39,162 nt of DNA, from the IMG/VR virus record IMGVR_UViG_2541047691_000016; one strand, given 5' to 3'. A program made the translations under genes and the position numbers. This document shows positions 214 through 35,311 of the stretch, one piece after another; position 1 is the stretch's first letter, and the number at the start of each line of letters is the position of its first letter. The notes beneath the pieces were generated by a model. That model was not told where the DNA came from. It was given only the letters and a program-made list of their open reading frames with translations, and did no database searches. This DNA is from a virus. Taxonomy: Duplodnaviria; Heunggongvirae; Uroviricota; Caudoviricetes.

Positions 214-2649
214 TTAGTGCTTCCCTTCTATTAAGTCTAACCTAGCTTTTATTCTTTCTATTTCTCTGCGCTGCCATGCTGCCTCGATATAGAATAAGAG
301 ATCAGGTCTGACCCCCCATCTAGATCCTGCTGGCGTTATTTCAACGCGCTCAATGATGTCTTCCATTACCATCACTGGATTATCATCCTCATCAACAATG
401 ATGCTCCCGTCATTATCAGTCAGCGGCATTTCCCTTTGGCCAGTAATGACGTCATCATATACTGCGGGATAATCGTCATAGCAAAGAAAGGCATAGCGGC
501 ATGTTGTGCTTTCTTCTTCCATGAGTCCGTGAGAAATAAGAACATCACGAAGTTGCTGCGCGATTACACCATGATGTATCCTCGCCCCTTCTTCCCCCTT
601 TATAGCGACAGCGTTCAGCCATTTATAAGCGATATACCTGACGTCACCCCAGGCATCCAGCAATGTTTCGTCAGGAGAGACCGGCTCTGTCTTTAATGTT
701 CCGTCACTGGTAACCACAGGATTGGAGCCAAGATAAACTATCGAGAACCTGTTTCCCGGACCACCAAGAGCATTTACATTATCAAGATAAGGTTTAACAT
801 CTCCGTTCTCAAAAAGATGTTCGAGTGCGTTATATACCGCGCGACGTGGAGTACTGCTTCTGGAACCATGCAACGTTATCATTGCACCATCTGCTGAAGA
901 CGTTGTTTCACCGCCGCTAACGATTAATCTCTGAGCGGTAACATCATCAGACGGTACTTTCTTCGCAATAATGGCGTAATTACCCTCAAGTTTGACTTCC
1001 GCGCGAACTTGTCCTGATGTACCTGCATGGACAGTCAGTGACTGGACGGCAACATCATCTGTGAAATCAACGGGTACAGGAACCGTCCTCACGCCTGACG
1101 TCGACATAAAAGTAGGAAGCGTTCTGTTAGGAGTGGCTCCGTAGACAAAATCCCTTGAAACAAATTCTTCCTGTTTAATTTTCACCCTGAAACAATACAA
1201 ATCAGCCGGGTGACCATCGTGAACATAAGGATATTTTCTGTTGTTATCCCCTATGCTCCATGGGTTTAGAAAGTCTTCCCCACCGAAAATGTAGTACAGC
1301 CAGTTGTCTTTGATACAAACTGAACCAACACCAACCGCAGAGTTAACTATTCCGCCCTGATAAATCTGATCAGTAACATTAACCCACTCTACATTATCCA
1401 GACTCCACTCATTGACGTTAACTCTGGTCATAAATGTTCTTGGATAGTTTCCTGCATAACGGTTATCAGGTTCTCCTCCTTCCCACTCACCAAATGCGCG
1501 CTCACTGCCAAAAATAATCAGCTCATCGCCAACTTTGGCAAAAGGAAGGTTTGAGTGATGAACATTATTTGGGAAGCGAAGAGAATTCCATGATGTACCT
1601 AAATCAGAGCTTCTGTGCAATGAACTACCGGGTTGAGTACTTAATGTCCCCCTGGTCGTCAGATACAGAATGCCATCATAATATTTTACACATGGCTCAG
1701 ATGCATTCGCCTCATATTCTGCAGGTATGCGTCTGCGAACAAAGCTACCAGGAGAACCGAAAGCATCAGAGAAATAGAGTATCCCAAGCTCGCGTGGACC
1801 AATATCACCATTATGGTAGCCAACAGCAAAACTGTTATCGCTAATCGTCGCAAAACTGTGAATCTCAGTAACAGGAGTGCTTCCGTCAACAAAAGAAGGA
1901 ATAGTTCCAAGACTGGTTTTTCTCCATGGTGACGAGTGAAATGATGTACCAAAACTCCAGTATCTACCCTCGTTATTCTGATCCACATCCTGGGTATTTT
2001 GCGTCGTAACTGTAAAAGTATTTTTATCAATAACAGTAGTCACCGTCATATTCCCGGTAACACCTGTAACACCAGAGTTTGAGAAGTTGACAAAATCACC
2101 AGCAAATAATCCGTGATCAGTAATGCGAATATAAGCGACTTGCTGATTTGCTGCTTTCGTTATACCACCATAAACGCGAAGGCTGCGACTCATTGGGCGA
2201 TCCCACAACTCTGCAACCTGCAGTTTATTTCCGCTCACGGTCCGCGTCTCAATTACAGCAAAAAGGCGATTTCTGACAACCCCCATACTCATGCAGTGAT
2301 AGTTAACTGTGGGATAGTTTTCATGTAAATCTGTAAGCCATTCCGGCGTTGTCCAGGTCTTCCCGTCATCTCCTGAGCGAACCCATGCAACATGGAGGTT
2401 ATTTACACCATGGCGGTCTCCAGCCATAAAAGGCGCATAGATGACATTGTCATATACAAACGTTTTATCCTGCGTCCAGGCGTTGTACCACGGTGTATCT
2501 GTAATTTTAAATAACTCTCCCTGGATAAAATCTTCAGAAACATAAAAAAGAGGCTGACCCGGTATTCTCTCAAATAAAAAACGAGCATTTTTAAATCGAC
2601 TGACATCTGGAAGAGTTGATACTTTAAAAGTAAGCCCTCGCCCATCTAT
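214..2649 (-). pseudogene. Tailspike endosialidase (endo-N-acetylneuraminidase), catalytic and C-terminal chaperone part; separated from its head-binding domain by IS2
   Basis: Translation aligns along its length with endoNF-type endosialidase (IPGQPL, DGKTWTTPEWLTDLH, PMSRSL, NFSNSGVTGV, RIHHGVIAQQLRDV motifs as recalled); the ORF-track start at 2676 is a GTG inside the IS2 terminal repeat, so the first 9 codons are IS-derived. Confidence 0.85.
2645..2649. repeat. IS2 target-site duplication copy (TCTAT)
   Basis: Identical 5-mer directly flanks both IS2 ends (2645-2649 and 3981-3985). Confidence 0.85.
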
Positions 2650-2660
2650 TGGATTTGCCC

Positions 2661-3566
2661 CTATATTTCCAGACACCTGTTATCACTTAACCCATTACTG
2701 GCTTGCTGCCGTAGATATTCCCGTGGCGAGCGATAACCCAGTGCACTATGCGGATGCCATTCGTTATAATGCTCGAACGCCTCTGCAAGGTTCTTTGCTG
2801 CCGTTAACCCGTCTGGTTTGGGCATGACACTGATGTAGTCACGCTTTATCGTTTTCACGAAGCTCTCTGCTATGCCGTTACTCTCCGGACTCCGCACCGC
2901 CGTGCTCTTCGGTTCAAGCCCCAACATCCGGGCAAACTGCCGTGTTTCATTAGCCCGGTAGCATGAACCATTATCCGTCAGCCACTCTACTGGAGACGCC
3001 GGAAGCTCGTTGCCGAAGCGGCGTTCCACCGCTCCCAGCATGACGTCCTGTACTGTTTCACTGTTGAAGCCGCCCGTAGTGACCGCCCAGTGCAGTGCCT
3101 CACGGTCACAGCAGTCCAGCGCGAACGTGACTCGCAGTTTTTCTCCGTTATCACAGCGGAACTCGAACCCGTCAGAGCACCATCGCTGATTACTTTCTTT
3201 CACAGCCACTCTGCCTGTATGTGCCCGTTTCGATGGCGGTACAGCAGGTTTTCGCTCAAGCAACAGCGCATTCTGGCGCATGATCCGGTAAACACGTTTG
3301 GCATTGATCGCAGGCATACCATCAAGTTCTGCCTGTCTGCGAAGCAGCGCCCATACCCGACGATAACCATACGTGGGCAGCTCTCCGATAACATGGTGTA
3401 TACGGAGAAGCACATCCGTATCATCAGTGTGACGACTGCGGCGGCCATCCATCCAGTCATCGGTTCGTCTGAGAATGACGTGCAACTGCGCACGCGACAC
3501 CCGGAGACAACGGCTGACTAAGCTTACTCCCCATCCCCGGGCAATAAGGGCGCGTGCGCTATCCAC
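2661..3566 (-). CDS. insD: IS2 transposase OrfB (InsD, DDE integrase domain)
   Basis: 301-aa ORF recognised as IS2 InsD; overlaps insC as expected for the -1 frameshift fusion. Confidence 0.9.
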
Positions 3567-3889
3567 TTTTTTGCCCGTCCATATTCAACGGCTTCTTTGA
3601 GGAGTTCATTTTCCATCGTTTTCTTGCCGAGCAGGCGCTGGAGTTCTTTAATCTGCTTCATGGCGGCAGCAAGTTCAGAGGCAGGAACAACCTGTTCTCC
3701 GGCGGCGACAGCAGTAAGACTTCCTTCCTGGTATTGCTTACGCCAGAGAAATAACTGGCTGGCTGCTACACCATGTTGCCGGGCAACGAGGGAGACCGTC
3801 ATCCCTGGTTCAAAGCTCTGCTGAACAATTGCGATCTTTTCCTGTGTGGTACGCCGTCTGCGTTTCTCCGGTCCTAAGACATCAATCAT
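3524..3889 (-). CDS. insC: IS2 OrfA (InsC, HTH regulator/transposase N-terminal part)
   Basis: Translation from the ATG at 3889 ([18 protein letters not shown]...) matches IS2 InsC; the ORF-track start at 3934 is an upstream extension. Confidence 0.88.
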
Positions 3890-3964
3890 CTGCTCTCCAA
3901 TGACTAGTCTAAAAACTAGTATTAAGACTATCACTTAAATAAGTGATATTGGTTGTCTGGAGAT

Positions 3965-4495
3965 TCAGGGGGCCAGTCTATCTATCTTTTCACCACCTGT
4001 TGCAACAGAAAGTAATTCTGATAGAGCTGATGTATCATCATGAACACCATCACCAATAGCCCCCCACCCTCTTACATCATAACTGTCTCTCCATCTTGCT
4101 ATCTGAAGTTTTGGGTATTTATTCGCTCCATCTGTGTCTTCTAATTGCTGCCGTAACTGATCAGGATCATACTTCAGCACATTAGGAAAATAGAACTGCT
4201 GCGCACCATACGCATCATAAACAGCCATAGAATGGCCTTGCACGGTAACGAATTTGGCAATCTGTCCGTTATATACCGGATATCCAGCAGCGTTAATGAT
4301 TATTGGTTGCGAAACAGGAACGTGAGAACCGTCTTCATTCTCCACATAGACCTGAATCTGGTTTTCTGTATTTACAGGATCAGTGTCAATTTTACCGATA
4401 TAAATTTTGCCATTGGCTACGGCTTTAAAAGAACGCGCCATAGTGAAGAGTTGCGAAGGCATCGATACGATCACATTGGCTGTAATGTCTGTCAT
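3965..4495 (-). pseudogene. Tailspike N-terminal head-binding domain (P22 gp9-like); native sequence is 4495..3986, then the frame runs into IS2 and stops at 3965
   Basis: [40 protein letters not shown]... closely resembles the P22 tailspike N-terminus; the last residues (DRLAP) are IS2-encoded. Confidence 0.88.
3981..3985. repeat. IS2 target-site duplication copy (TCTAT)
   Basis: See partner repeat at 2645-2649. Confidence 0.85.
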
Positions 4496-4595: not shown

Positions 4596-5498
4596 TCAGT
4601 AGTTATGTACTGAAGGAGGTAATTCTTTATTCTTAAGTCTCATCCATGCGGAAAGATTCGTTGGTCCGTCTGGCTCATTAATATCAACATCTCGTGTATG
4701 GTTGATTAAAACATCTCTCGCCATTCCGATAACATACGAGAATTCATGACCGTAGTCGTAGCATCTGCCGGAATAGTTCGATTGAATTTGTTTTAGCGCC
4801 TGATACAGTTCGCGGAATAATGCCTGTGAGCGGTTGGCATAATCCCATAGCCATACAAGGCTGTTTACTTCTTTTGCAGAAAGCTCGTTGGTTTTCTTCT
4901 CTTGTTTGCCGATGAACTCACCTTCAAGCACTACCCTGTGGATGTACTCTACTGCTTGTGGTATCTGAGATGCATCAAGCTCTTCAATACTTTCCACATT
5001 GAAACGCTGATGAATCATTGCATAAGCTTCTGGGTACATTAGATGCTTTTTGCTGACTAGCATATTTACAGCATCACGAAGCGGAGTCCTGTCATCAACA
5101 GATGTTTTCTTCCGTGCATTTGCTGCCTCTCCCTTTGTCCAGTAGTCATGCAGCACAGTAAAGCATTCTTCCTGGTACTGAATCAGTTTATCGCGGATGT
5201 CAGCACGAACTTTCTCAGGGTTGATGCTGAACAGCCATCCATTTAACTTCTTCAAAGGAAGGCAGAGTAGCTTACGAAGCTTACCATCAGCGGCAACCAT
5301 GTTCATATGAACACAGTTGAATTTGCTAATCTGCTTCATGAGTTTTGTTTGCTGCGTTGACCAGCTCATTCCGAGGTTTTCAACGATTGGCTTCATCGCA
5401 ACATATGCAACTCCGGCAGCCATGGCGGTGATAATTTGCTGACCGTTGAATGGCACGTAAGAGGTGTTCACTGCTTCTAAAATTGCTATACTATTCAT
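4596..5498 (-). CDS. ant: Antirepressor Ant (P22 Ant-like, 300 aa)
   Basis: [26 protein letters not shown]... from the ATG at 5498 with GGAG RBS; the ORF-track start at 5564 is an in-frame upstream extension. Confidence 0.88.
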
Positions 5499-5577
5499 GT
5501 TGGTTTTTCTCCACGGATTTACCGACAACCGAAGCCCTGACTGTTCCAGCAGTTGGGGCTTCACTGTTTTGATTTCT
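5499..5577 (+). ncRNA. Candidate sar-like antisense RNA complementary to the ant ribosome-binding region
   Basis: Extended -10 (TGcTATACT, 5484-5492) on the plus strand inside the ant 5' end; GAAGCCC/GGGCTTC hairpin (5531-5562) followed by a U-rich tract; arrangement matches P22 sar. Confidence 0.4.
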
Positions 5578-5730
5578 TTGCCGCATCAAGCATCACTTCT
5601 GAAAACGTGCGCTTGCCACTGAATACTCTTTCTCTTCTCAATTTTTCGTTCGTGCCAAATGATTCGCCATGAACAAAATTTGGTCTTAAAATGGTAATCG
5701 CAATCTCTTTGACTACTGCATCCAAGCGAA

Positions 5731-5883
5731 TCACACCGTTACCCCCTCTCTCTTCAGGCTGTCTATCAGGCGCTTGATAACCTCTGAGTTAAACGACCTG
5801 CACTCTTCCTTTGCCCTGCTACCGATAGCATCCTTTAACGACTGCGGCATCCTTACCAAAATCTTACTTATTTCTTTCTCCAT
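5731..5883 (-). CDS. arc: Arc-like ribbon-helix-helix repressor (50 aa)
   Basis: MEKEISKILVRMPQSLKDAIGSRAKEECRSFNSEVIKRLIDSLKREG resembles P22 Arc; GGAGGG RBS upstream of the ATG at 5883. Confidence 0.8.
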   Translation of the reverse strand: MEKEISKILVRMPQSLKDAIGSRAKEECRSFNSEVIKRLIDSLKREGVTV

Positions 5884-5997
5884 GTTACCCTCCACGCAAA
5901 CAACTCTTTTCGAATACAAAAGATAGCAAAGTGAGTATATCTAGTCAAAATTTTTTTGCATACACTTTGCTATCAAATTGAATACCAAAGGTGTTAT
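5884..5997. promoter_or_regulatory. Divergent Pant/Pmnt control region with candidate Arc/Mnt operators
   Basis: Lies between divergent arc and mnt; perfect 11-bp inverted repeat ATAGCAAAGTG (5923-5933) / CACTTTGCTAT (5963-5973), each embedded in AGATA...TATCT-like symmetry. Confidence 0.5.
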
Positions 5998-6246
5998 ATG
6001 GCAAAGGGTGTGTCAATTTCTCCAACTACGGTAAGAATCCCTGAATCTTTACGCGAGGCTCTTGCTGTCAGAGCATCAAAAAATGGTCGCTCTGTTAACT
6101 CCGAGATCGTCATGATTTTGCAAGCCGCGATTGATGAAGATAGGTCGCCAAAGTCAGTTGAGTCATTTGCTCAGCAAGAAGCTGATAAATTCAAAGAGGC
6201 GCTACTTGAGACGCTAAAGACCATGTATGCTAAGGATGAAAAATAA
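5998..6246 (+). CDS. mnt: Mnt-like ribbon-helix-helix repressor (82 aa)
   Basis: MAKGVSISPTTVRIPESLREALAVRASKNGRSVNSEIV... with a C-terminus like P22 Mnt; the ORF-track start at 5956 is an upstream extension. Confidence 0.75.
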   Translation: MAKGVSISPTTVRIPESLREALAVRASKNGRSVNSEIVMILQAAIDEDRSPKSVESFAQQEADKFKEALLETLKTMYAKDEK

Positions 6247-6782
6247 TGCTGCACACAATTCATTTCTTATGCCCTGTTAACACTGCCACTGTTGGGCAAC
6301 TTCAGAACCACTGTCTCACCGCATTATCTCAAGGCGCAACTGAATTAAATATCCATATATCAAGTCAGGGAGGGGAAACTGCTGCTGGCTTTACTGCGTA
6401 TAACTTTCTTAAGTCACTCCCTGTTACCGTTAGAACTCACAACATAAGCAATGTTGAATCCATAGCTAATATCGTTTTCCTGGCTGGCTCAGAACGTTTC
6501 GCAAACCCATTATCAAGATTCCTGTTACATCCTCTATTATGGTGCTTTGCCTCCCCAGCCGCCGACCATGCCAGATTGAGAGAGTACGGGAAATGCCTCG
6601 ATAACGATCTTGATCGCTTCGTTGAGACGTTCAATATCGACATCGGAACCCATATTAGGTGGGCATCCCTGATAGCAGACTCGACCATTTTGGATGCTAA
6701 CAAGGCTCTTGAGCATGGCATAATTAATTCCATAAAAACTGCAAGGCTGGCATCCAATCAGGCAAACTGGTGGGTTGTTTGA
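6246..6782 (+). CDS. Truncated ClpP-family (S14) serine peptidase-like protein, 178 aa, translationally coupled to mnt
   Basis: ISSQGGETAAGFTAYNF...SNVESIANIVFLAGSERFANPLSRFLLHP aligns with the ClpP core (INSPGG..AG..IYD..GQAASMG..LLTAGAKGKRF..NSRVMIHQP), with Ser, His and a candidate Asp in register; about 40 N-terminal ClpP residues are absent; start overlaps the mnt stop (TAATG). Confidence 0.65.
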   Translation: MLHTIHFLCPVNTATVGQLQNHCLTALSQGATELNIHISSQGGETAAGFTAYNFLKSLPVTVRTHNISNVESIANIVFLAGSERFANPLSRFLLHPLLWCFASPAADHARLREYGKCLDNDLDRFVETFNIDIGTHIRWASLIADSTILDANKALEHGIINSIKTARLASNQANWWVV

Positions 6783-6807
6783 TGGGTAAATCATGATTAC
6801 TCCTTAT

Positions 6808-6834
6808 AAAAAACCCACCTGACGGTGGGTTTAG
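6808..6834. terminator. Bidirectional intrinsic terminator between convergent genes
   Basis: AAACCCACC-TGAC-GGTGGGTTT hairpin with A/T runs on both sides; overlaps the stop codon of the 149-aa gene. Confidence 0.65.
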
Positions 6835-7280
6835 TCAAACATAGTGTTTCTAAAGTCTCTCGCATACCCTGCTAACACTCTCATTCTATTATGATTGTTA
6901 GCAGACATGTGAGCTACAGGATGAAAAAGAGCAATCAATGAATACCTGTTCTCATCAAAAAGATTTTGTGCATAAACGAGAGCGGTATTGGATGTTTTAT
7001 GCCACTGCAACTTTTGCGGTGTGCTGATATCTGTGCCATTTTTTATTGGCTCAAATTTATTTTCACCAATTGCTAAATGAAGGTGCATAAGGCCTGCATC
7101 TTCAATATCAGGAGGTCGATGATAAGAGGTGTCTCTGCCAAAATAGCTGGGCAACGTTCCCGTAGACTTGTAGATGATAAAATCATCTACAAGTGTTTGT
7201 TTTAAATCAGGAAACTCAACAAAAACCGGGGAGAAAAAATAGTCAAAACTATCCTGATTATATTCCACGGTTACTTGCAT
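6831..7280 (-). CDS. Hypothetical protein, 149 aa (distal gene of the AT-rich immI two-gene operon)
   Basis: ORF with GAGG RBS 8 nt after the upstream stop; AT-rich; no family recognised. Confidence 0.6.
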   Translation of the reverse strand: MQVTVEYNQDSFDYFFSPVFVEFPDLKQTLVDDFIIYKSTGTLPSYFGRDTSYHRPPDIEDAGLMHLHLAIGENKFEPIKNGTDISTPQKLQWHKTSNTALVYAQNLFDENRYSLIALFHPVAHMSANNHNRMRVLAGYARDFRNTMFD

Positions 7281-7288
7281 GTTTTACC

Positions 7289-7855
7289 TCAGTGGAAGTT
7301 ACCAGAGTGAAACACACGAGTCCCGTGCTCAGCAAGCGCACGCAAACCAGCCATATCTACGGAACTATCAAAAACAACCGGAACACATGAGCGTTGTTTA
7401 ATAAGACTATTCAGGTTGGTTACGGCAGATCTGGCATCAGCAACAACGATATAGATATCTCTTGCGATCTCTTTAAAATCAGCAGAAGCTTCTTTGAATA
7501 CCGATTTCATTGCCCCTTCAAGTCCTCTCAATTGATGCTCTATCAATCGAGACTTTTCTGGTTCAATGATAGACAACACATTGTCTACATTCTCATCGGT
7601 AGCGTTTGCAAGAACACGATAAGCGTATTTCAGCATTCGAGACAATTCTTTAATCGAAGACACCGCCTCATGAAGCTCATCATTAGCCCGTTCACTGCTG
7701 AATGAGGATTGATGGTAAGCGTGCTGAACGTTATCAGTAACAACCACCTCACAACTGAACGCAGAAGCTTGCTGTAATAGCAAACCTATTGCGACTCCAG
7801 CTTTGGCAGCGTTCAAGCTAAACATTTCATCAATCCCATTAGTCTCATTGCTCAT
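7289..7855 (-). CDS. Hypothetical protein, 188 aa (proximal gene of the immI two-gene operon)
   Basis: ATG at 7855 preceded by AAGGAGG with a 5-nt spacer; the ORF-track start at 7885 is an extension; no family recognised. Confidence 0.6.
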   Translation of the reverse strand: MSNETNGIDEMFSLNAAKAGVAIGLLLQQASAFSCEVVVTDNVQHAYHQSSFSSERANDELHEAVSSIKELSRMLKYAYRVLANATDENVDNVLSIIEPEKSRLIEHQLRGLEGAMKSVFKEASADFKEIARDIYIVVADARSAVTNLNSLIKQRSCVPVVFDSSVDMAGLRALAEHGTRVFHSGNFH

Positions 7856-32672: not shown

Positions 32673-32739
32673 AATTAAAGAACACTTAAATTATCCACTA
32701 AAGGAATCTTAAGTCAAGTTTATTTAAGATGTCTTAACT
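32673..32739. promoter_or_regulatory. OR operator cluster with PR/PRM (three P22-type 18-bp operators)
   Basis: ATTTAAGTGTTCTTTAAT-type sites at about 32674-32691, 32697-32714 and 32722-32739, between divergent cro and c2. Confidence 0.75.
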
Positions 32740-33390
32740 ATGAAAACTCAATTGATGGGAGAGCGCATTCGCGCTCGGAGAAAAGAACTCAAGATCAGGC
32801 AGGCCGCACTTGGAAAGATGGTCGGCGTGTCTAATGTTGCCATATCTCAGTGGGAACGCTCTGAGACAGAGCCAAATGGAGAGAATCTTCTCGCCCTGGC
32901 TAATGCGTTGAAGTGTTCCCCTGACTATCTGATGAAAGGAGAGGAAAGTCTTTCAAACATTGCCTATCACAGTAGGCATGATCCAAGAGGGTCATACCCT
33001 CTGATTAGCTGGGTGAGCGCAGGATGCTGGATGGAAGCTGTAGAACCATATCATAAGCGTGCAATAGATAACTGGTACGATACAACCGTAGACTGTTCAG
33101 AAGATTCGTTTTGGTTGGACGTGAAGGGAGACTCAATGACGGCTCCGGCCGGTCTCAGTATCCCTGAAGGAATGATAATACTCGTCGATCCTGAAGTAGA
33201 GCCGCGTAACGGGAAACTGGTAGTTGCAAAGCTCGAAGGAGAAAACGAGGCAACTTTCAAGAAGTTAGTTATTGATGCAGGCAGGAAGTTTCTAAAACCA
33301 CTTAACCCACAATATCCGATGATCGAGATCAACGGAAACTGCAAAATCATCGGCGTAGTTGTCGATGCAAAACTAGCAAACCTTCCATAA
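32740..33390 (+). CDS. c2: C2 repressor (P22-type CI homologue, 216 aa)
   Basis: MKTQLMGERIRARRKELKIRQAALGKMVGVSNVAISQWERSETEPNGENLLAL... resembles P22 C2, including the LexA-like C-terminal domain. Confidence 0.93.
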   Translation: MKTQLMGERIRARRKELKIRQAALGKMVGVSNVAISQWERSETEPNGENLLALANALKCSPDYLMKGEESLSNIAYHSRHDPRGSYPLISWVSAGCWMEAVEPYHKRAIDNWYDTTVDCSEDSFWLDVKGDSMTAPAGLSIPEGMIILVDPEVEPRNGKLVVAKLEGENEATFKKLVIDAGRKFLKPLNPQYPMIEINGNCKIIGVVVDAKLANLP

Positions 33391-33414
33391 GGGGGCATTC
33401 GCCCCTTTTTTTTT
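33391..33414 (+). terminator. Intrinsic terminator downstream of c2
   Basis: GGGGC-AUUC-GCCCC hairpin followed by U9. Confidence 0.75.
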
Positions 33415-33437
33415 ATTTCCTTTAAAAATCAAAGCCA

Positions 33438-33511
33438 AACTTAAGTTACGAAAGAAAATTTAAGTTTTCTTCAAAAATGCTCTTGACCATTAATTAAAGA
33501 GATCTTAAATT
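33438..33511 (+). promoter_or_regulatory. OL operators and PL promoter (-35 TTGACC 33483-33488, -10 TAAATT 33506-33511)
   Basis: P22-type operator half-sites (ATTTAAG...CTTTAAT) overlapping the promoter hexamers. Confidence 0.6.
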
Positions 33512-33546
33512 TAAGCCATCAGCAGGACGCTGGAAGCCAAACGGAA

Positions 33547-33586
33547 CAGATTGGCAGGCTCTTTAACATTGATGGGATTGTCCCGC
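33547..33586 (+). promoter_or_regulatory. nutL (boxA GCTCTTTAA 33547-33555; boxB CCCGCCGAAATGCGGG 33571-33586)
   Basis: Identical boxA/boxB pair to nutR, located in the PL leader upstream of the N-like gene. Confidence 0.7.
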
Positions 33587-33911
33587 CGAAATGCGGGAAC
33601 CAAAGAGTAGTTGGCTTTGGGGTGACGTGAAGTGCAGCTGCACGACGGCAACCGGAAGATAAGCACCCGGCGCGTCACCGCCAAAGTCAATTCCATAGGC
33701 GTTATGCAGCCGCCACCATATTCAAGAAAGCTGCACAAGAGGTAGGAGGATTTATGTGAATGCATAACTTCAAAACCGAGGTTAATTAAATCTCTCGATC
33801 CGAGCATCGACCTATTAGGTGGCGAGATGCTCTTTCTGCCCCTCAGTTCGAGGGGCCAGAAACCACTTTGCAATCACTATCAATTCCAAAGTTGTTTCAT
33901 CGGAGGTCAAC

Positions 33912-34211
33912 ATGACAGTAGTCATTACATATCTGGCTGACGATAACGCCAGAAATCGCCGCAGAGCACGCAGACAGGCTCAACGTGAACAGGCGATGCA
34001 AGAACAGCGACTGGCGCGAAAAATTGCGCTAAAGCTCTCTGGTTGCGTCAGAGCGGATAAAGCAGCATCACTCGGAATCCTTCGCTGCAAGAAGGCAGAT
34101 GAAGTCGAGAGTAAACAGAATCGTATTTACTACCGCAAGCCACGCAGTGAAATGGGTGTGACTTGTGTTGGTCGCCAGAAAATGAAATTAGGCAGCAAAC
34201 CACTTATTTGA
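33912..34211 (+). CDS. N: N-like transcription antiterminator (99 aa) with an arginine-rich motif
   Basis: ATG at 33912 with GGAGG RBS; N-terminal DNARNRRRARRQAQREQ; first gene of the PL operon after nutL; the ORF-track start at 33819 is an extension. Confidence 0.75.
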   Translation: MTVVITYLADDNARNRRRARRQAQREQAMQEQRLARKIALKLSGCVRADKAASLGILRCKKADEVESKQNRIYYRKPRSEMGVTCVGRQKMKLGSKPLI

Positions 34212-34219
34212 GGTGATAT

Positions 34220-34690
34220 ATGACAAAATCATGGAGCGTACCTTTTCCTGAATCAGAAACTGAACATGATGGAATGCCTGTTTTCTGGAGATTCCAAGCG
34301 ACAGTTGAAGAAGATGGAATCAAAATATTCGCACTTCAATATATAGCTTTTCATCAGACAGAGCATTATGCATGGTTGGTTCCTGCGCATTGGATTGTTA
34401 ATTTTAAACCAGCACCAAATCAGTGGTTACAGGAATGGAAACAAAGGAGAAATAGATATGCAATTAAGAAAGTAGCAAAAAATGCAGAAAGATCTTTTGC
34501 ATTCCCGACGAAGAAACTTGCCATTGAAAGTTTATTGCGCCGGAAGAAATACCATTTGATGAGAATCAAACAAGATTTGGCTGTTGTATCAACTCTTGTT
34601 GATGGGATGAAGAATATTGATACATCAACACCAGGTATTGAATATAACTTTGGACACAACCAAGAAACAGAAAACTGGGTGTTTTATTAG
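34220..34690 (+). CDS. Hypothetical protein (156 aa), AT-rich gene between N and tL
   Basis: ORF with lower GC than its neighbours; no family recognised. Confidence 0.55.
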   Translation: MTKSWSVPFPESETEHDGMPVFWRFQATVEEDGIKIFALQYIAFHQTEHYAWLVPAHWIVNFKPAPNQWLQEWKQRRNRYAIKKVAKNAERSFAFPTKKLAIESLLRRKKYHLMRIKQDLAVVSTLVDGMKNIDTSTPGIEYNFGHNQETENWVFY

Positions 34691-34804
34691 TACGAATAAG
34701 CACTGTGTATTCATTCCAACGAGTGAATACACGGAGCAATGTCGCTCGTAACTAAACAGGAGCCGACTTGTTCTGATTATTGGAAATCTTCTTTGCCCTC
34801 CAGT

Positions 34805-34830
34805 GTGAGGGCTTTTTTATATGCATACCA
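34805..34830 (+). terminator. Intrinsic terminator (tL1-like)
   Basis: GCCCUC-CAGUGU-GAGGGC hairpin followed by U6. Confidence 0.7.
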
Positions 34831-34884
34831 ATAACGCTTCACTCGAGGCGTTTTCGTTATGCAATCAAACAGAAGGAGCATCCT

Positions 34885-35055
34885 ATGCAACAGTTCGCTA
34901 TTGCAGGGGCGGCATCGGTTCGCCCTTTCAACCCGATTTTATCGGTACAGCATTCACGAAAAAACATTTTAACCGGAGCAGACTTTAAACAACCAAGAAT
35001 GAAAAGCTTGCTCGAAAAGCTTTGGGATATTTTGAAACAACAAGGCCGTCCATGA
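34885..35055 (+). CDS. Small hypothetical protein (56 aa)
   Basis: ATG at 34885 with AAGGAG RBS; the ORF-track start at 34780 overlaps the terminator and is rejected. Confidence 0.45.
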   Translation: MQQFAIAGAASVRPFNPILSVQHSRKNILTGADFKQPRMKSLLEKLWDILKQQGRP

Positions 35056-35210
35056 GTTTTACGGATAACTGGTCAGACGAAGAATTCATTCGTCAGATAA
35101 AAGAATTAATCGGTAACGAAGGAGATATTCATGTCACTTGCAACCACAGTGAAGGAGAGCAAGTTACAGAGACGCATGTACACGCAGAAAGCTCTCTGGT
35201 ATCGCCATAA
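35052..35210 (+). CDS. Small hypothetical acidic protein (52 aa)
   Basis: ATG overlaps the upstream stop (ATGA coupling). Confidence 0.4.
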   Translation: MSFTDNWSDEEFIRQIKELIGNEGDIHVTCNHSEGEQVTETHVHAESSLVSP

Positions 35211-35311
35211 TGGTGACCGCGAAGGAATGCGGGTATGCCTTAATTTGTCCCGAGTCGAAGTATTAAATCAGCGTTATTTCCTTGGGCCGTGTCCATTCTG
35301 AGAGCAATCAT

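What the first reader, a model, noticed from the sequence alone, without database searches (positions are those of the whole stretch)
34220..34690. AT-rich gene of unknown function immediately after the N-like antiterminator
A 156-aa ORF with visibly lower GC than its neighbours sits between the N-like gene and a strong terminator (34805-34830). In lambda the equivalent position carries accessory genes such as ral and sieB. I recognise no family for it. It is a single-gene moron candidate for exclusion, anti-restriction or defence.
Basis: partly seen in the sequence, partly recalled or inferred. Interest (0 to 1): 0.55.

Follow-up and report, generated by a model that had tools for sequence, protein, structure and literature searches.

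The report
Uncharacterised early gene after phage N
The AT-rich ORF is real, but it is the long-catalogued and never-characterised HK97 gp45 / 933W p19 gene: a swappable early cassette transcribed with the N antiterminator that encodes a small basic protein of unknown function, so it is a reasonable knock-out candidate rather than a surprise.

Summary
Window 34220-34690 (+) is a 156-aa ORF directly after an N-like gene, followed by a structured 3'UTR and an intrinsic terminator (stem 34795-34812 plus T6). Its GC is 0.367 (GC3 0.293), the lowest of 46 ORFs in this P22-like/CUS-3-type E. coli prophage.

It is not an orphan. It is 98-99% identical to HK97 gp45, 933W ST933Wp19 and Phi24B vb_24B_11c (PHROG 1636, unknown function). 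It occurs in 83 phage records and in 598 of 5,426 complete E. coli genomes, always annotated hypothetical. About 655 bp (leader, ORF, 3'UTR, terminator stem) moves as one cassette between unrelated backbones. CUS-3 has the same cI and N but carries ral plus other genes in this slot.

The gene is under purifying selection. The protein is soluble and basic: a conserved +10 core, and an acidic tail that in most distant relatives ends Phe-Asp/Glu (here Phe-Tyr). A confident AF2 model (pLDDT 95) has no solved structural relative.

No promoter of its own was found. It lies between pL/N and the first terminator, so it should be immediate-early and silent in lysogens. That argues against a strict moron or a lysogen defence gene. 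An early cytoplasmic nucleic-acid- or host-factor-binding role, possibly counter-defence, is more likely. Function remains unproven. Interest is modest.

The parts
33483..33511 (+). pL-like sigma-70 promoter (TTGACC-17-TAAATT). Its -10 is overlapped by the operator-like palindrome CTTAAATTTAAG (33504-33515).
   Evidence: the only promoter-like site in 33300-35300. I10 and for the palindrome. Related CTTAA/TTAAG half-sites lie between cro and cI at 32683-32735. Its role as the repressor-controlled pL is inferred.
33828..33856 (+). nutL-like element: boxA-like TGCTCTTT followed by a boxB-like hairpin GCCCCTC-AGTTC-GAGGGGC (7-bp stem, 5-nt loop)
   Evidence: Sequence; inverted repeat I19; the hairpin is in the MFE and centroid folds. 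Assignment as nutL is by analogy with lambda/P22 nut sites (own knowledge).
33912..34211 (+). N-like antiterminator gene (99 aa, arginine-rich N-terminus)
   Evidence: PHROG 271 'anti-termination protein N-like' E = 2.9e-36. Pfam N_peptide E = 0.0016, sub-threshold. Identical gene annotated N in CUS-3 and 611R6.
34158..34219 (+). 62-bp stretch that travels with the cassette. Here it is the 3' end of N plus the SD GAGGTG (34210-34215), which overlaps the N stop codon TGA (34209-34211). In HK97 and 933W the same 62 bp is non-coding leader.
   Evidence: Alignments.
34220..34690 (+). The ORF: 156 aa, 18.6 kDa, pI 9.3, HK97 gp45 / PHROG 1636 family
34700..34737 (+). Conserved 3'UTR hairpin (core GTGTATTCA / TGAATACAC), part of a strongly structured 3'UTR
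   Evidence: I3; 34688-34825 folds at -46.3 kcal/mol, z = -5.07, 0 of 200 shuffles as stable. Nearly invariant in five phages. No Rfam match.
34795..34818 (+). Intrinsic terminator (stem GCCCTC-CAGTGT-GAGGGC plus T6). It is the first terminator of the pL operon (tL1-like) and the right end of the cassette.
   Evidence: The HK97 homologue is annotated 'terminator, putative'. 933W and PA28 diverge immediately after the stem.
34885..35055 (+). cIII-like gene, the next gene downstream (context only)
   Evidence: PHROG 550 'CIII' E = 1e-22

Best explanation
The ORF is the cargo of a ~655-bp exchangeable cassette (N-3'-end/leader, ORF, structured 3'UTR, terminator) in the N-cIII accessory slot of lambdoid early-left operons.

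In this prophage it has no promoter of its own. It is transcribed from the repressor-controlled pL together with N, and it lies before the first terminator. It should therefore be made at once on infection or induction, without needing N antitermination, and be silent in the lysogen.

Its product is a soluble cytoplasmic protein of a phage-specific family with no solved structural relative. A strongly basic core (beta-hairpin plus the start of a long helix) is flanked by acidic ends, with a C-terminal tail that in most distant relatives ends Phe-Asp/Glu (here Phe-Tyr).

I infer that it acts early in the lytic programme by binding nucleic acid, or a host enzyme that handles nucleic acid, through the conserved basic surface. 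The acidic tail may gate that surface or recruit a partner. The most likely biological role is counter-defence or host takeover that protects or favours incoming and replicating phage DNA.

Shown: gene reality, family membership, cassette boundaries, transcript anatomy by sequence, charge architecture, absence of known homology. Inferred: timing of expression, nucleic-acid or host-factor binding, counter-defence role.
For: Family and reality. PHROG 1636 full-length E = 1e-111. The gene is 98-99% identical in HK97, 933W, Phi24B, BP-4795, H-19B and others: 83 phage records and 598 of 5,426 E. coli genomes. Purifying selection is shown.

Cassette. 97-99.8% nucleotide identity over window 34158-34812 in five phages whose flanks are unrelated. 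CUS-3 has the same cI and N but carries ral plus other genes, with the breakpoint exactly at the ATG. Slot neighbours elsewhere are ral, a gp17-like gene and an ea10-like gene.

Expression. The only promoter-like site is pL at 33483-33511, overlapped by an operator-like palindrome. The SD overlaps the N stop. The terminator lies after the ORF. A Phi24B lysogen-expression screen, which was not saturating, did not recover this CDS.

Protein. No TM segment, pI 9.3, and 16 K/R in residues 74-117. Across 62 distant relatives the median pI is 9.0, the core segment has a median net charge of +10, basic columns are conserved (K87 97%, K109 87%, R24 94%), and the C-terminus is 70% Phe followed by 76% Asp/Glu. 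The AF2 model has pLDDT 95.4 and pTM 0.82.

Context of relatives. They always lie in early-left, recombination or integration operons. Structural relatives occur in diverse phages, including ones I believe are virulent, which argues for a lytic-phase function.
Against: There are no functional data of any kind.

The promoter scan is a simple consensus search, so a weak or non-sigma-70 promoter, or read-through from cI, cannot be excluded.

In Brenneria, Pectobacterium and other relatives the gene sits at the distal end of the operon next to xis-int, not after N. The immediate-early position is therefore a feature of the E. coli clade and not of the family.

The gene is not recognised by DefenseFinder's anti-defence module, which was run on phi296 and phi367 (PMC12502783); both carry it. 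No homologue was found in the held supplements of a 196-gene accessory-gene screen.
Confidence: 0.4

Rival explanations
1. Lysogen-expressed moron that protects the host (superinfection exclusion or abortive-infection defence).
For: The composition is deviant and the cassette carries its own terminator. The slot holds sieB in lambda (own knowledge) and a gp17-like 'superinfection exclusion' PHROG in PA28. Up to 4 copies occur per E. coli genome.
Against: No promoter-like site was found. The gene is embedded in pL between N and the first terminator. There is no TM segment, unlike SieA, SieB or HK97 gp15. PADLOC gives no hit for it or for 75 relatives. It was not recovered in the Phi24B lysogen-expression screen. 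Fold relatives occur in phages that I believe are virulent.
Confidence: 0.1
2. A DNA- or RNA-binding regulator of phage development. It would tune early transcription or antitermination, the lysis-lysogeny decision, or excision.
For: It has a conserved basic surface. It is co-transcribed with N and lies next to cIII here. It sits directly upstream of xis/AlpA-int in Brenneria, Pectobacterium and a metagenomic prophage. Exo-xis region genes of lambdoid phages are reported to bias the lysis-lysogeny decision (abstract of PMC7093339, seen).
Against: It pairs with at least four different N alleles and also occurs in phages with no recognisable N. It is dispensable in phages with the same cI and N (CUS-3). 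No HTH, RHH or other known regulator fold was detected. Position within the operon is variable.
Confidence: 0.2
3. An accessory factor for phage DNA transactions (recombination or replication). It would be SSB-like in design, with a basic binding core and an acidic C-terminal tail ending in an aromatic residue that recruits partners.
For: The charge architecture is conserved across the family. Neighbours are repeatedly Erf, RecT, YqaJ, Gam, RdgC and DNA methylase. In T7 gp2.5 and bacterial SSB an acidic tail ending in Phe mediates partner binding (own knowledge).
Against: No OB fold or any SSB-like hit by sequence or structure. The gene lies outside the contiguous Rec module. A 2025 survey of lambdoid early-left operons found very few unassigned genes inside canonical Rec modules, and no universally present unknown-function gene in phages lacking a Rec module (PMC12315714). 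The AF2 model places the tail confidently, which suggests it is packed and not free.
Confidence: 0.15

Closest known systems
HK97 gp45 (NP_037731.1) = 933W ST933Wp19 (NP_049479.1) = Phi24B vb_24B_11c; PHROG 1636
   Same: It is the same gene. Protein identity is 98-99% over all 156 aa, the 3'UTR and terminator are the same, and the position immediately after N is the same.
   Different: Nothing material. Here the N allele is the 99-aa CUS-3 type, so N reads into the 62-bp stretch that is a non-coding leader in HK97 and 933W. None of these homologues has an assigned function.
Lambda Ral and the other occupants of the N-cIII accessory slot
   Same: Same slot and same pL regulatory context. CUS-3 has identical cI and N and carries ral (PHROG 1055) where this prophage carries the ORF.
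   Different: There is no sequence relationship. Ral is 66 aa. Some phages (phi296, phi367) carry both genes, so they are not functional alleles in any strict sense.
Morons as defined for HK97/HK022 (for example HK97 gene 15, lambda lom and bor)
   Same: Deviant base composition, a single gene with its own terminator, and sharp mosaic boundaries between otherwise adjacent genes.
   Different: No promoter of its own was detected, and it is embedded in the repressed pL operon. Expression from the prophage, the functional hallmark of a moron, is not expected.
T7 Ocr (gene 0.3) type first-expressed anti-restriction proteins
   Same: It is among the first genes transcribed after DNA entry, and it is a non-essential accessory gene.
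   Different: Ocr and ArdA are highly acidic DNA mimics. This protein is basic (pI 9.3). There is no sequence or fold similarity.
Acidic-tailed ssDNA-binding proteins (T7 gp2.5, bacterial SSB)
   Same: Basic core plus an acidic C-terminal tail ending in an aromatic or aromatic-acidic residue, conserved across the family. It is encoded near recombination genes.
   Different: No OB fold and no detectable homology. The resemblance is one of design only.

Membership tests
PHROG 1636 / HK97 gp45 family | Full-length profile match | tested here: met
   E = 1.1e-111, residues 1-156 against profile positions 1-156 of 156. All 75 members of alignment A2 hit it.
PHROG 1636 / HK97 gp45 family | Near-identity to the named members and the same genomic position (after N, before the terminator) | tested here: met
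   98.7-99.4% amino-acid identity to HK97, 933W, Phi24B, BP-4795 and H-19B. Annotated contexts are; nucleotide alignment.
Moron (Juhala/Hendrix definition) | Base composition different from the surrounding genome | tested here: met
   GC 0.367 against 0.474; lowest of 46 ORFs; z = -2.76.
Moron (Juhala/Hendrix definition) | Own terminator downstream | tested here: met
   Stem 34795-34812 plus T6. It belongs to the shared cassette in four of five phages.
Moron (Juhala/Hendrix definition) | Own promoter upstream | tested here: not met
   No sigma-70-like site between N and the ORF. The gap from the N stop to the ATG is 8 nt. This was a consensus scan only, so a weak promoter is not excluded.
Moron (Juhala/Hendrix definition) | Expressed from the repressed prophage | not testable with these tools
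   There is only indirect evidence: the CDS was not among those recovered in the non-saturating Phi24B lysogen screen (PMC3342100).
Ral (restriction alleviation) | Homology to lambda/P22 Ral (PHROG 1055), about 66 aa | tested here: not met
   No PHROG 1055 or Pfam hit. The ral gene of CUS-3 is a different gene in the same slot.
SieB/SieA/gp15-type superinfection exclusion | Inner-membrane protein with transmembrane segments | tested here: not met
   Maximum 19-residue Kyte-Doolittle hydropathy is 0.56 and GRAVY is -0.57. No homology was found.
Known anti-phage defence systems (PADLOC-DB 2.0) | Match to any defence-protein model | tested here: not met
   The best hit is Cas1_II at E = 0.018 over 45 residues, which is noise. 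The 75 relatives give only scattered single hits of E 0.001-0.005.
DNA-mimic anti-restriction proteins (Ocr, ArdA) | Strongly acidic surface that mimics DNA | tested here: not met
   pI 9.27, and the family median pI is about 9.0.
SSB / T7 gp2.5-like ssDNA-binding proteins | OB fold | tested here: not met
SSB / T7 gp2.5-like ssDNA-binding proteins | Acidic C-terminal tail ending in an aromatic residue | tested here: met
   The C-terminal segment has a median net charge of -4. The penultimate column is 70% Phe and the last column 76% Asp/Glu in 62 distant members. This is a design resemblance only.

The most novel reading that the evidence does not exclude
The ORF may be the E. coli representative of a pan-phage family of early proteins with a previously unseen fold. 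Such a protein would bind nucleic acid, or a host nucleic-acid enzyme, to neutralise an as yet unassigned host defence or to redirect host DNA or RNA transactions. Because it is co-transcribed with N as an immediate-early gene in 933W, Phi24B and many other Stx phages, it could also influence Stx-prophage induction success and host range.
Probability: 0.25. Interest if true: 0.6.

Novelty: already known. Interest (0 to 1): 0.35.

Why it matters
The gene itself is not new. It has been in the HK97, 933W and H-19B sequences since about 1998-2000, and it sits in roughly one in nine complete E. coli genomes.

It is nevertheless a well-defined 'known unknown'. It is strongly conserved and under purifying selection. 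In its E. coli clade it is placed to be the only gene co-transcribed with N before the first terminator. It encodes a confidently predicted fold with no solved relative.

If it proves to be a counter-defence or host-takeover factor, it would add a new protein family to that repertoire. It would also bear on the biology of Shiga-toxin phages. If it does nothing measurable, it is one more lambdoid accessory ORF.

Tried and rejected
- Sequence libraries. Pfam, NCBIfam, PADLOC and PDB-sequence searches gave nothing, using the single protein, the 22-sequence profile, the 75-sequence profile and all 75 members individually.
- Spurious hits. Two long 'relatives' in the exhaustive search (P0059, 940 aa; P0080, 444 aa) are low-complexity or repeat artefacts.
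- Literature. Searches for HK97 gp45, for accessions and locus tags, for PHROG ids and for the position found no functional work. The gp45 mentions that turned up belong to other phages. No homologue was found in the held supplements of Silas et al. 2025.
The genome-contig scan gave only 7 loci.
- RNA. Rfam found no RNA family in 33300-35300.
- Misaligned comparison. The right-hand window/CUS-3 alignment used a poorly chosen CUS-3 range and is uninformative.
- Link to N. A functional link to N is rejected. The gene pairs with several N alleles and in other genera sits next to xis-int.

Full report
1. WHAT IS THERE

The window is a P22-like E. coli prophage of the CUS-3 / phiv205-1 type. The reported ORF is exactly where stated: 34220..34690 on the + strand, ATG start, 156 aa.

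Its GC content is 0.367 and GC3 is 0.293. The means for 46 ORFs of at least 90 aa are 0.474 and 0.473. It ranks lowest of the 46, with z = -2.76 and -2.67, and only 0.18% of 471-bp windows in the 39-kb window are as AT-rich.

The upstream gene (33912..34211) is N-like. It matches PHROG 271 at E = 2.9e-36, matches Pfam N_peptide below threshold, and is annotated N in CUS-3 and vB_EcoP-611R6.

Downstream there is a terminator-like hairpin (34795-34812) followed by T6.

2. IT IS A REAL GENE OF A CATALOGUED BUT UNCHARACTERISED FAMILY

The protein matches PHROG 1636 (unknown function) end to end at E = 1e-111.

It is 98-99% identical to HK97 gp45, 933W ST933Wp19, Phi24B vb_24B_11c and the equivalent ORFs of BP-4795, H-19B, Min27, PA28 and dozens of Stx1a/Stx2a phages. 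That makes 83 phage records in all.

It is present in 598 of 5,426 complete E. coli genomes, with up to four copies per genome, and is always annotated 'hypothetical protein'. The exact sequence is UniProt B7MH11 'Prophage protein'.

Homologues of 55-85% identity occur in Salmonella, Cronobacter, Pectobacterium, Brenneria, Rosenbergiella and Symbiopectobacterium. Across 22 sequences, 40 columns are invariant.

An exhaustive profile search found 87 cluster representatives at E <= 1e-3. Most are stand-alone proteins of 130-155 aa with 18-27% identity. None carries a Pfam domain, a name or a fusion partner.

Purifying selection is clear. dN/dS is 0.07-0.26 where dS is estimable, and dS is saturated elsewhere. 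Among five near-identical phage copies, 10 variable codons are synonymous and 2 non-synonymous.

GC below the flanks is a family trait, seen in 10 of 11 loci (-0.03 to -0.10). It is most extreme in the E. coli clade.

3. A MOBILE CASSETTE WITH SHARP BOUNDARIES

An alignment of the window with HK97 (siphovirus), 933W and PA28 (Stx podoviruses) and 611R6 (P22-like) shows 97-99.8% identity over window 34158-34812. That span is 62 bp upstream of the ATG, the ORF, a 105-nt 3'UTR and the terminator stem. The flanks on both sides are unrelated.

933W and PA28 diverge immediately after the terminator stem. 611R6 diverges just before it.

It has the same cI and the same 99-aa N, yet between N and cIII it carries ral, three unknown genes and an unannotated 28-aa acidic ORF. 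Window and CUS-3 are identical up to and including the SD and the ATG, and they diverge at the next base.

The 62-bp 'leader' of HK97 and 933W is therefore a fossil of the 3' end of a CUS-3-type N gene. PA28 retains about 28 further bp of it.

The slot is an accessory island. Its occupants elsewhere are ral (PHROG 1055), a gp17-like 'superinfection exclusion' PHROG 1510, an ea10-like protein and unknowns.

4. TRANSCRIPT ANATOMY (SEQUENCE SHOWN, REGULATION INFERRED)

The order along the + strand is as follows.

| Feature | Coordinates | Evidence |
|---|---|---|
| cI | 32740-33390 | |
| Strong terminator after cI | 33389-33408 | |
| pL-like promoter, the only promoter-like site in 33300-35300 | 33483-33511 | |
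| Operator-like palindrome CTTAAATTTAAG over the -10; related half-sites recur between cro and cI | 33504-33515 | |
| boxA-like TGCTCTTT plus boxB-like hairpin (7-bp stem, 5-nt loop) | 33828-33856 | |
| N | 33912-34211 | |
| SD GAGGTG, overlapping the N stop codon | 34210-34215 | |
| The ORF | 34220-34690 | |
| Highly structured 3'UTR (-46.3 kcal/mol, z = -5.07) | 34688-34825 | |
| Terminator (stem plus T6) | 34795-34818 | |
| cIII | 34885-35055 | |

By analogy with lambda tL1 (own knowledge), the N-independent immediate-early pL transcript should consist of N plus this ORF. In a lysogen both should be silent.

A non-saturating antibody and 2D-gel screen for Phi24B genes expressed in lysogen cultures did not recover this CDS (PMC3342100).

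The strict moron criteria of an own promoter and prophage expression are thus not met. Deviant composition, an own terminator and mosaic boundaries are met.

5. THE PROTEIN

It is 18.6 kDa with pI 9.3 and has no hydrophobic segment. Residues 74-117 hold 16 Lys/Arg (pI 11.7 for that segment), between acidic N- and C-terminal parts.

This architecture is conserved in 62 distant relatives:
- median pI is 9.0, and 95% have pI above 8;
- the core segment has a median net charge of +10;
- basic columns are conserved at R24 (94%), K87 (97%), position 92 (85%) and K109 (87%);
- the C-terminal segment has a median net charge of -4;
- the last two residues are Phe (70%) and Asp/Glu (76%).

With the deep alignment, AlphaFold2 gives a confident model (pLDDT 95.4, pTM 0.82). 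It has a three-stranded meander of long strands (19-55), two short helices, a small hairpin (83-95) and a 33-residue helix (98-130), and the tail is placed confidently.

In BFVD, 14 uncharacterised viral proteins match at E <= 1e-3. They include proteins of Erwinia phiEa2809, Achromobacter phiAxp-3, Delftia RG-2014, Cellulophaga phi17:2 and Tenacibaculum Gundel_1. To my knowledge several of these are virulent phages.

6. CONTEXT OF RELATIVES

In every locus with enough flank, the gene lies in an early, leftward-type operon.
- cI - N - X - KilR - Gam/RecT or Erf - int.
- RecT - YqaJ ... X.
- RdgC ... DNA methylase ... X ... int.
- First gene of an operon divergent from the replication genes.
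- First gene of an operon in Salmonella phage NX263.
- In Brenneria, Pectobacterium and a metagenomic prophage, immediately upstream of xis/AlpA and int.

Adjacency to N is therefore specific to the E. coli clade. The gene pairs with at least four N alleles, so a dedicated functional link to N is unlikely.

7. MECHANISM

Best reading (confidence about 0.4): an immediate-early, pL-driven, cytoplasmic accessory protein. It would bind nucleic acid, or a host protein that handles nucleic acid, through the conserved basic surface. The acidic tail may gate that surface or recruit a partner. It would act in the lytic or early phase, most plausibly as a counter-defence or host-takeover factor.

Arguments for it:
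- earliest possible expression;
- an exchangeable slot shared with ral and close to gam/abc2-type genes;
- fold relatives in phages I believe are virulent;
- cytoplasmic location.

Arguments against it:
- no functional data;
- no recognised nucleic-acid-binding fold;
- variable position within the operon in other genera;
- DefenseFinder's anti-defence module, run on phi296 and phi367, reported only MTase, Ral and Gam (PMC12502783), and both phages carry the gene.

Rivals:
- a developmental DNA/RNA-binding regulator (0.2);
- a recombination or replication accessory factor with an SSB-like acidic-tail design but no OB fold (0.15);

An Ocr/ArdA-type DNA mimic is excluded by charge.

8. COMPARISON, NOVELTY AND VERDICT

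This is the HK97 gp45 / 933W p19 gene. As a sequence it is already known, and as a function it is unknown. I found no paper that addresses it.

A lambdoid-phage specialist would not be surprised by an uncharacterised AT-rich ORF in the N-cIII region.

The features that do make it a good experimental target are:
- very wide distribution, including the classic Stx phages;
- strict conservation;
- placement as the only passenger on the immediate-early N transcript;
- a confidently predicted fold with no solved relative.

Interest is 0.35. The most novel reading still open is a new pan-phage family of early counter-defence or host-takeover proteins (probability about 0.25, interest 0.6 if true).

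Noticed in passing
window 34691-34818: The 3'UTR of the ORF is almost invariant in five unrelated phages and folds very stably (-46.3 kcal/mol, z = -5.07). It has a 12-bp hairpin (34705-34732), a second stem and the terminator. It could be a processing or stability element, or a 3'UTR-derived small RNA. Rfam has no match.
   Followed up: partly
window 34158-34222; L023 (CUS-3) about 2556-2620; L001 (HK97) 1501-1565: The mosaic breakpoint between this prophage and CUS-3 falls exactly at the ATG of the ORF. HK97, 933W and PA28 carry a 62-bp (PA28 about 90-bp) fossil of the 3' end of a CUS-3-type N gene as the 'leader' of their gp45 homologue. This implies the cassette spread from a phage with this N type.
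   Followed up: yes
L023 (CUS-3, CP000711.1) locus about 2618-2704: An unannotated 28-codon, very acidic ORF (MEEEFEEFEEHPQDVMEQYQDYPYDYDY, read off the alignment by eye) starts at the same SD and ATG that serve the gp45-like ORF in the window, upstream of ral.
   Followed up: no
window 214-4495 (- strand): The K1 endosialidase tailspike appears to be split. The head-binding domain plus endosialidase N-terminal extension lies at 3965-4495, and the catalytic part at 214-2427. They are separated by two ORFs at 2661-3452 (rve integrase core, IS-type transposase) and 3524-3889. The prophage is probably defective for tailspike.
   Followed up: partly
window 6831-7280 (-), with 7289-7855 (-) upstream: This is the second lowest-GC ORF in the window (0.378). 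It encodes a YafO-type type II toxin domain (Pfam E = 3.4e-22). The 188-aa ORF just upstream has no Pfam hit and could be its antitoxin partner. The pair lies next to a Clp-protease-like ORF (6246-6782, +) and the P22-type antirepressor (4596-5498). It is a better moron or defence candidate than the finding itself.
   Followed up: partly
window 33437-33515 and 32683-32735: Operator-like CTTAA/TTAAG palindromes flank and overlap the pL-like promoter (CTTAAATTTAAG over the -10). They recur between cro and cI. They are the likely OL and OR sites of this immunity type.
   Followed up: partly
L018 (Brenneria alni) 5001-7011; L019 (Pectobacterium betavasculorum) 5001-6922; L025 7001-8939: [quoted passage not shown]
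   Followed up: partly
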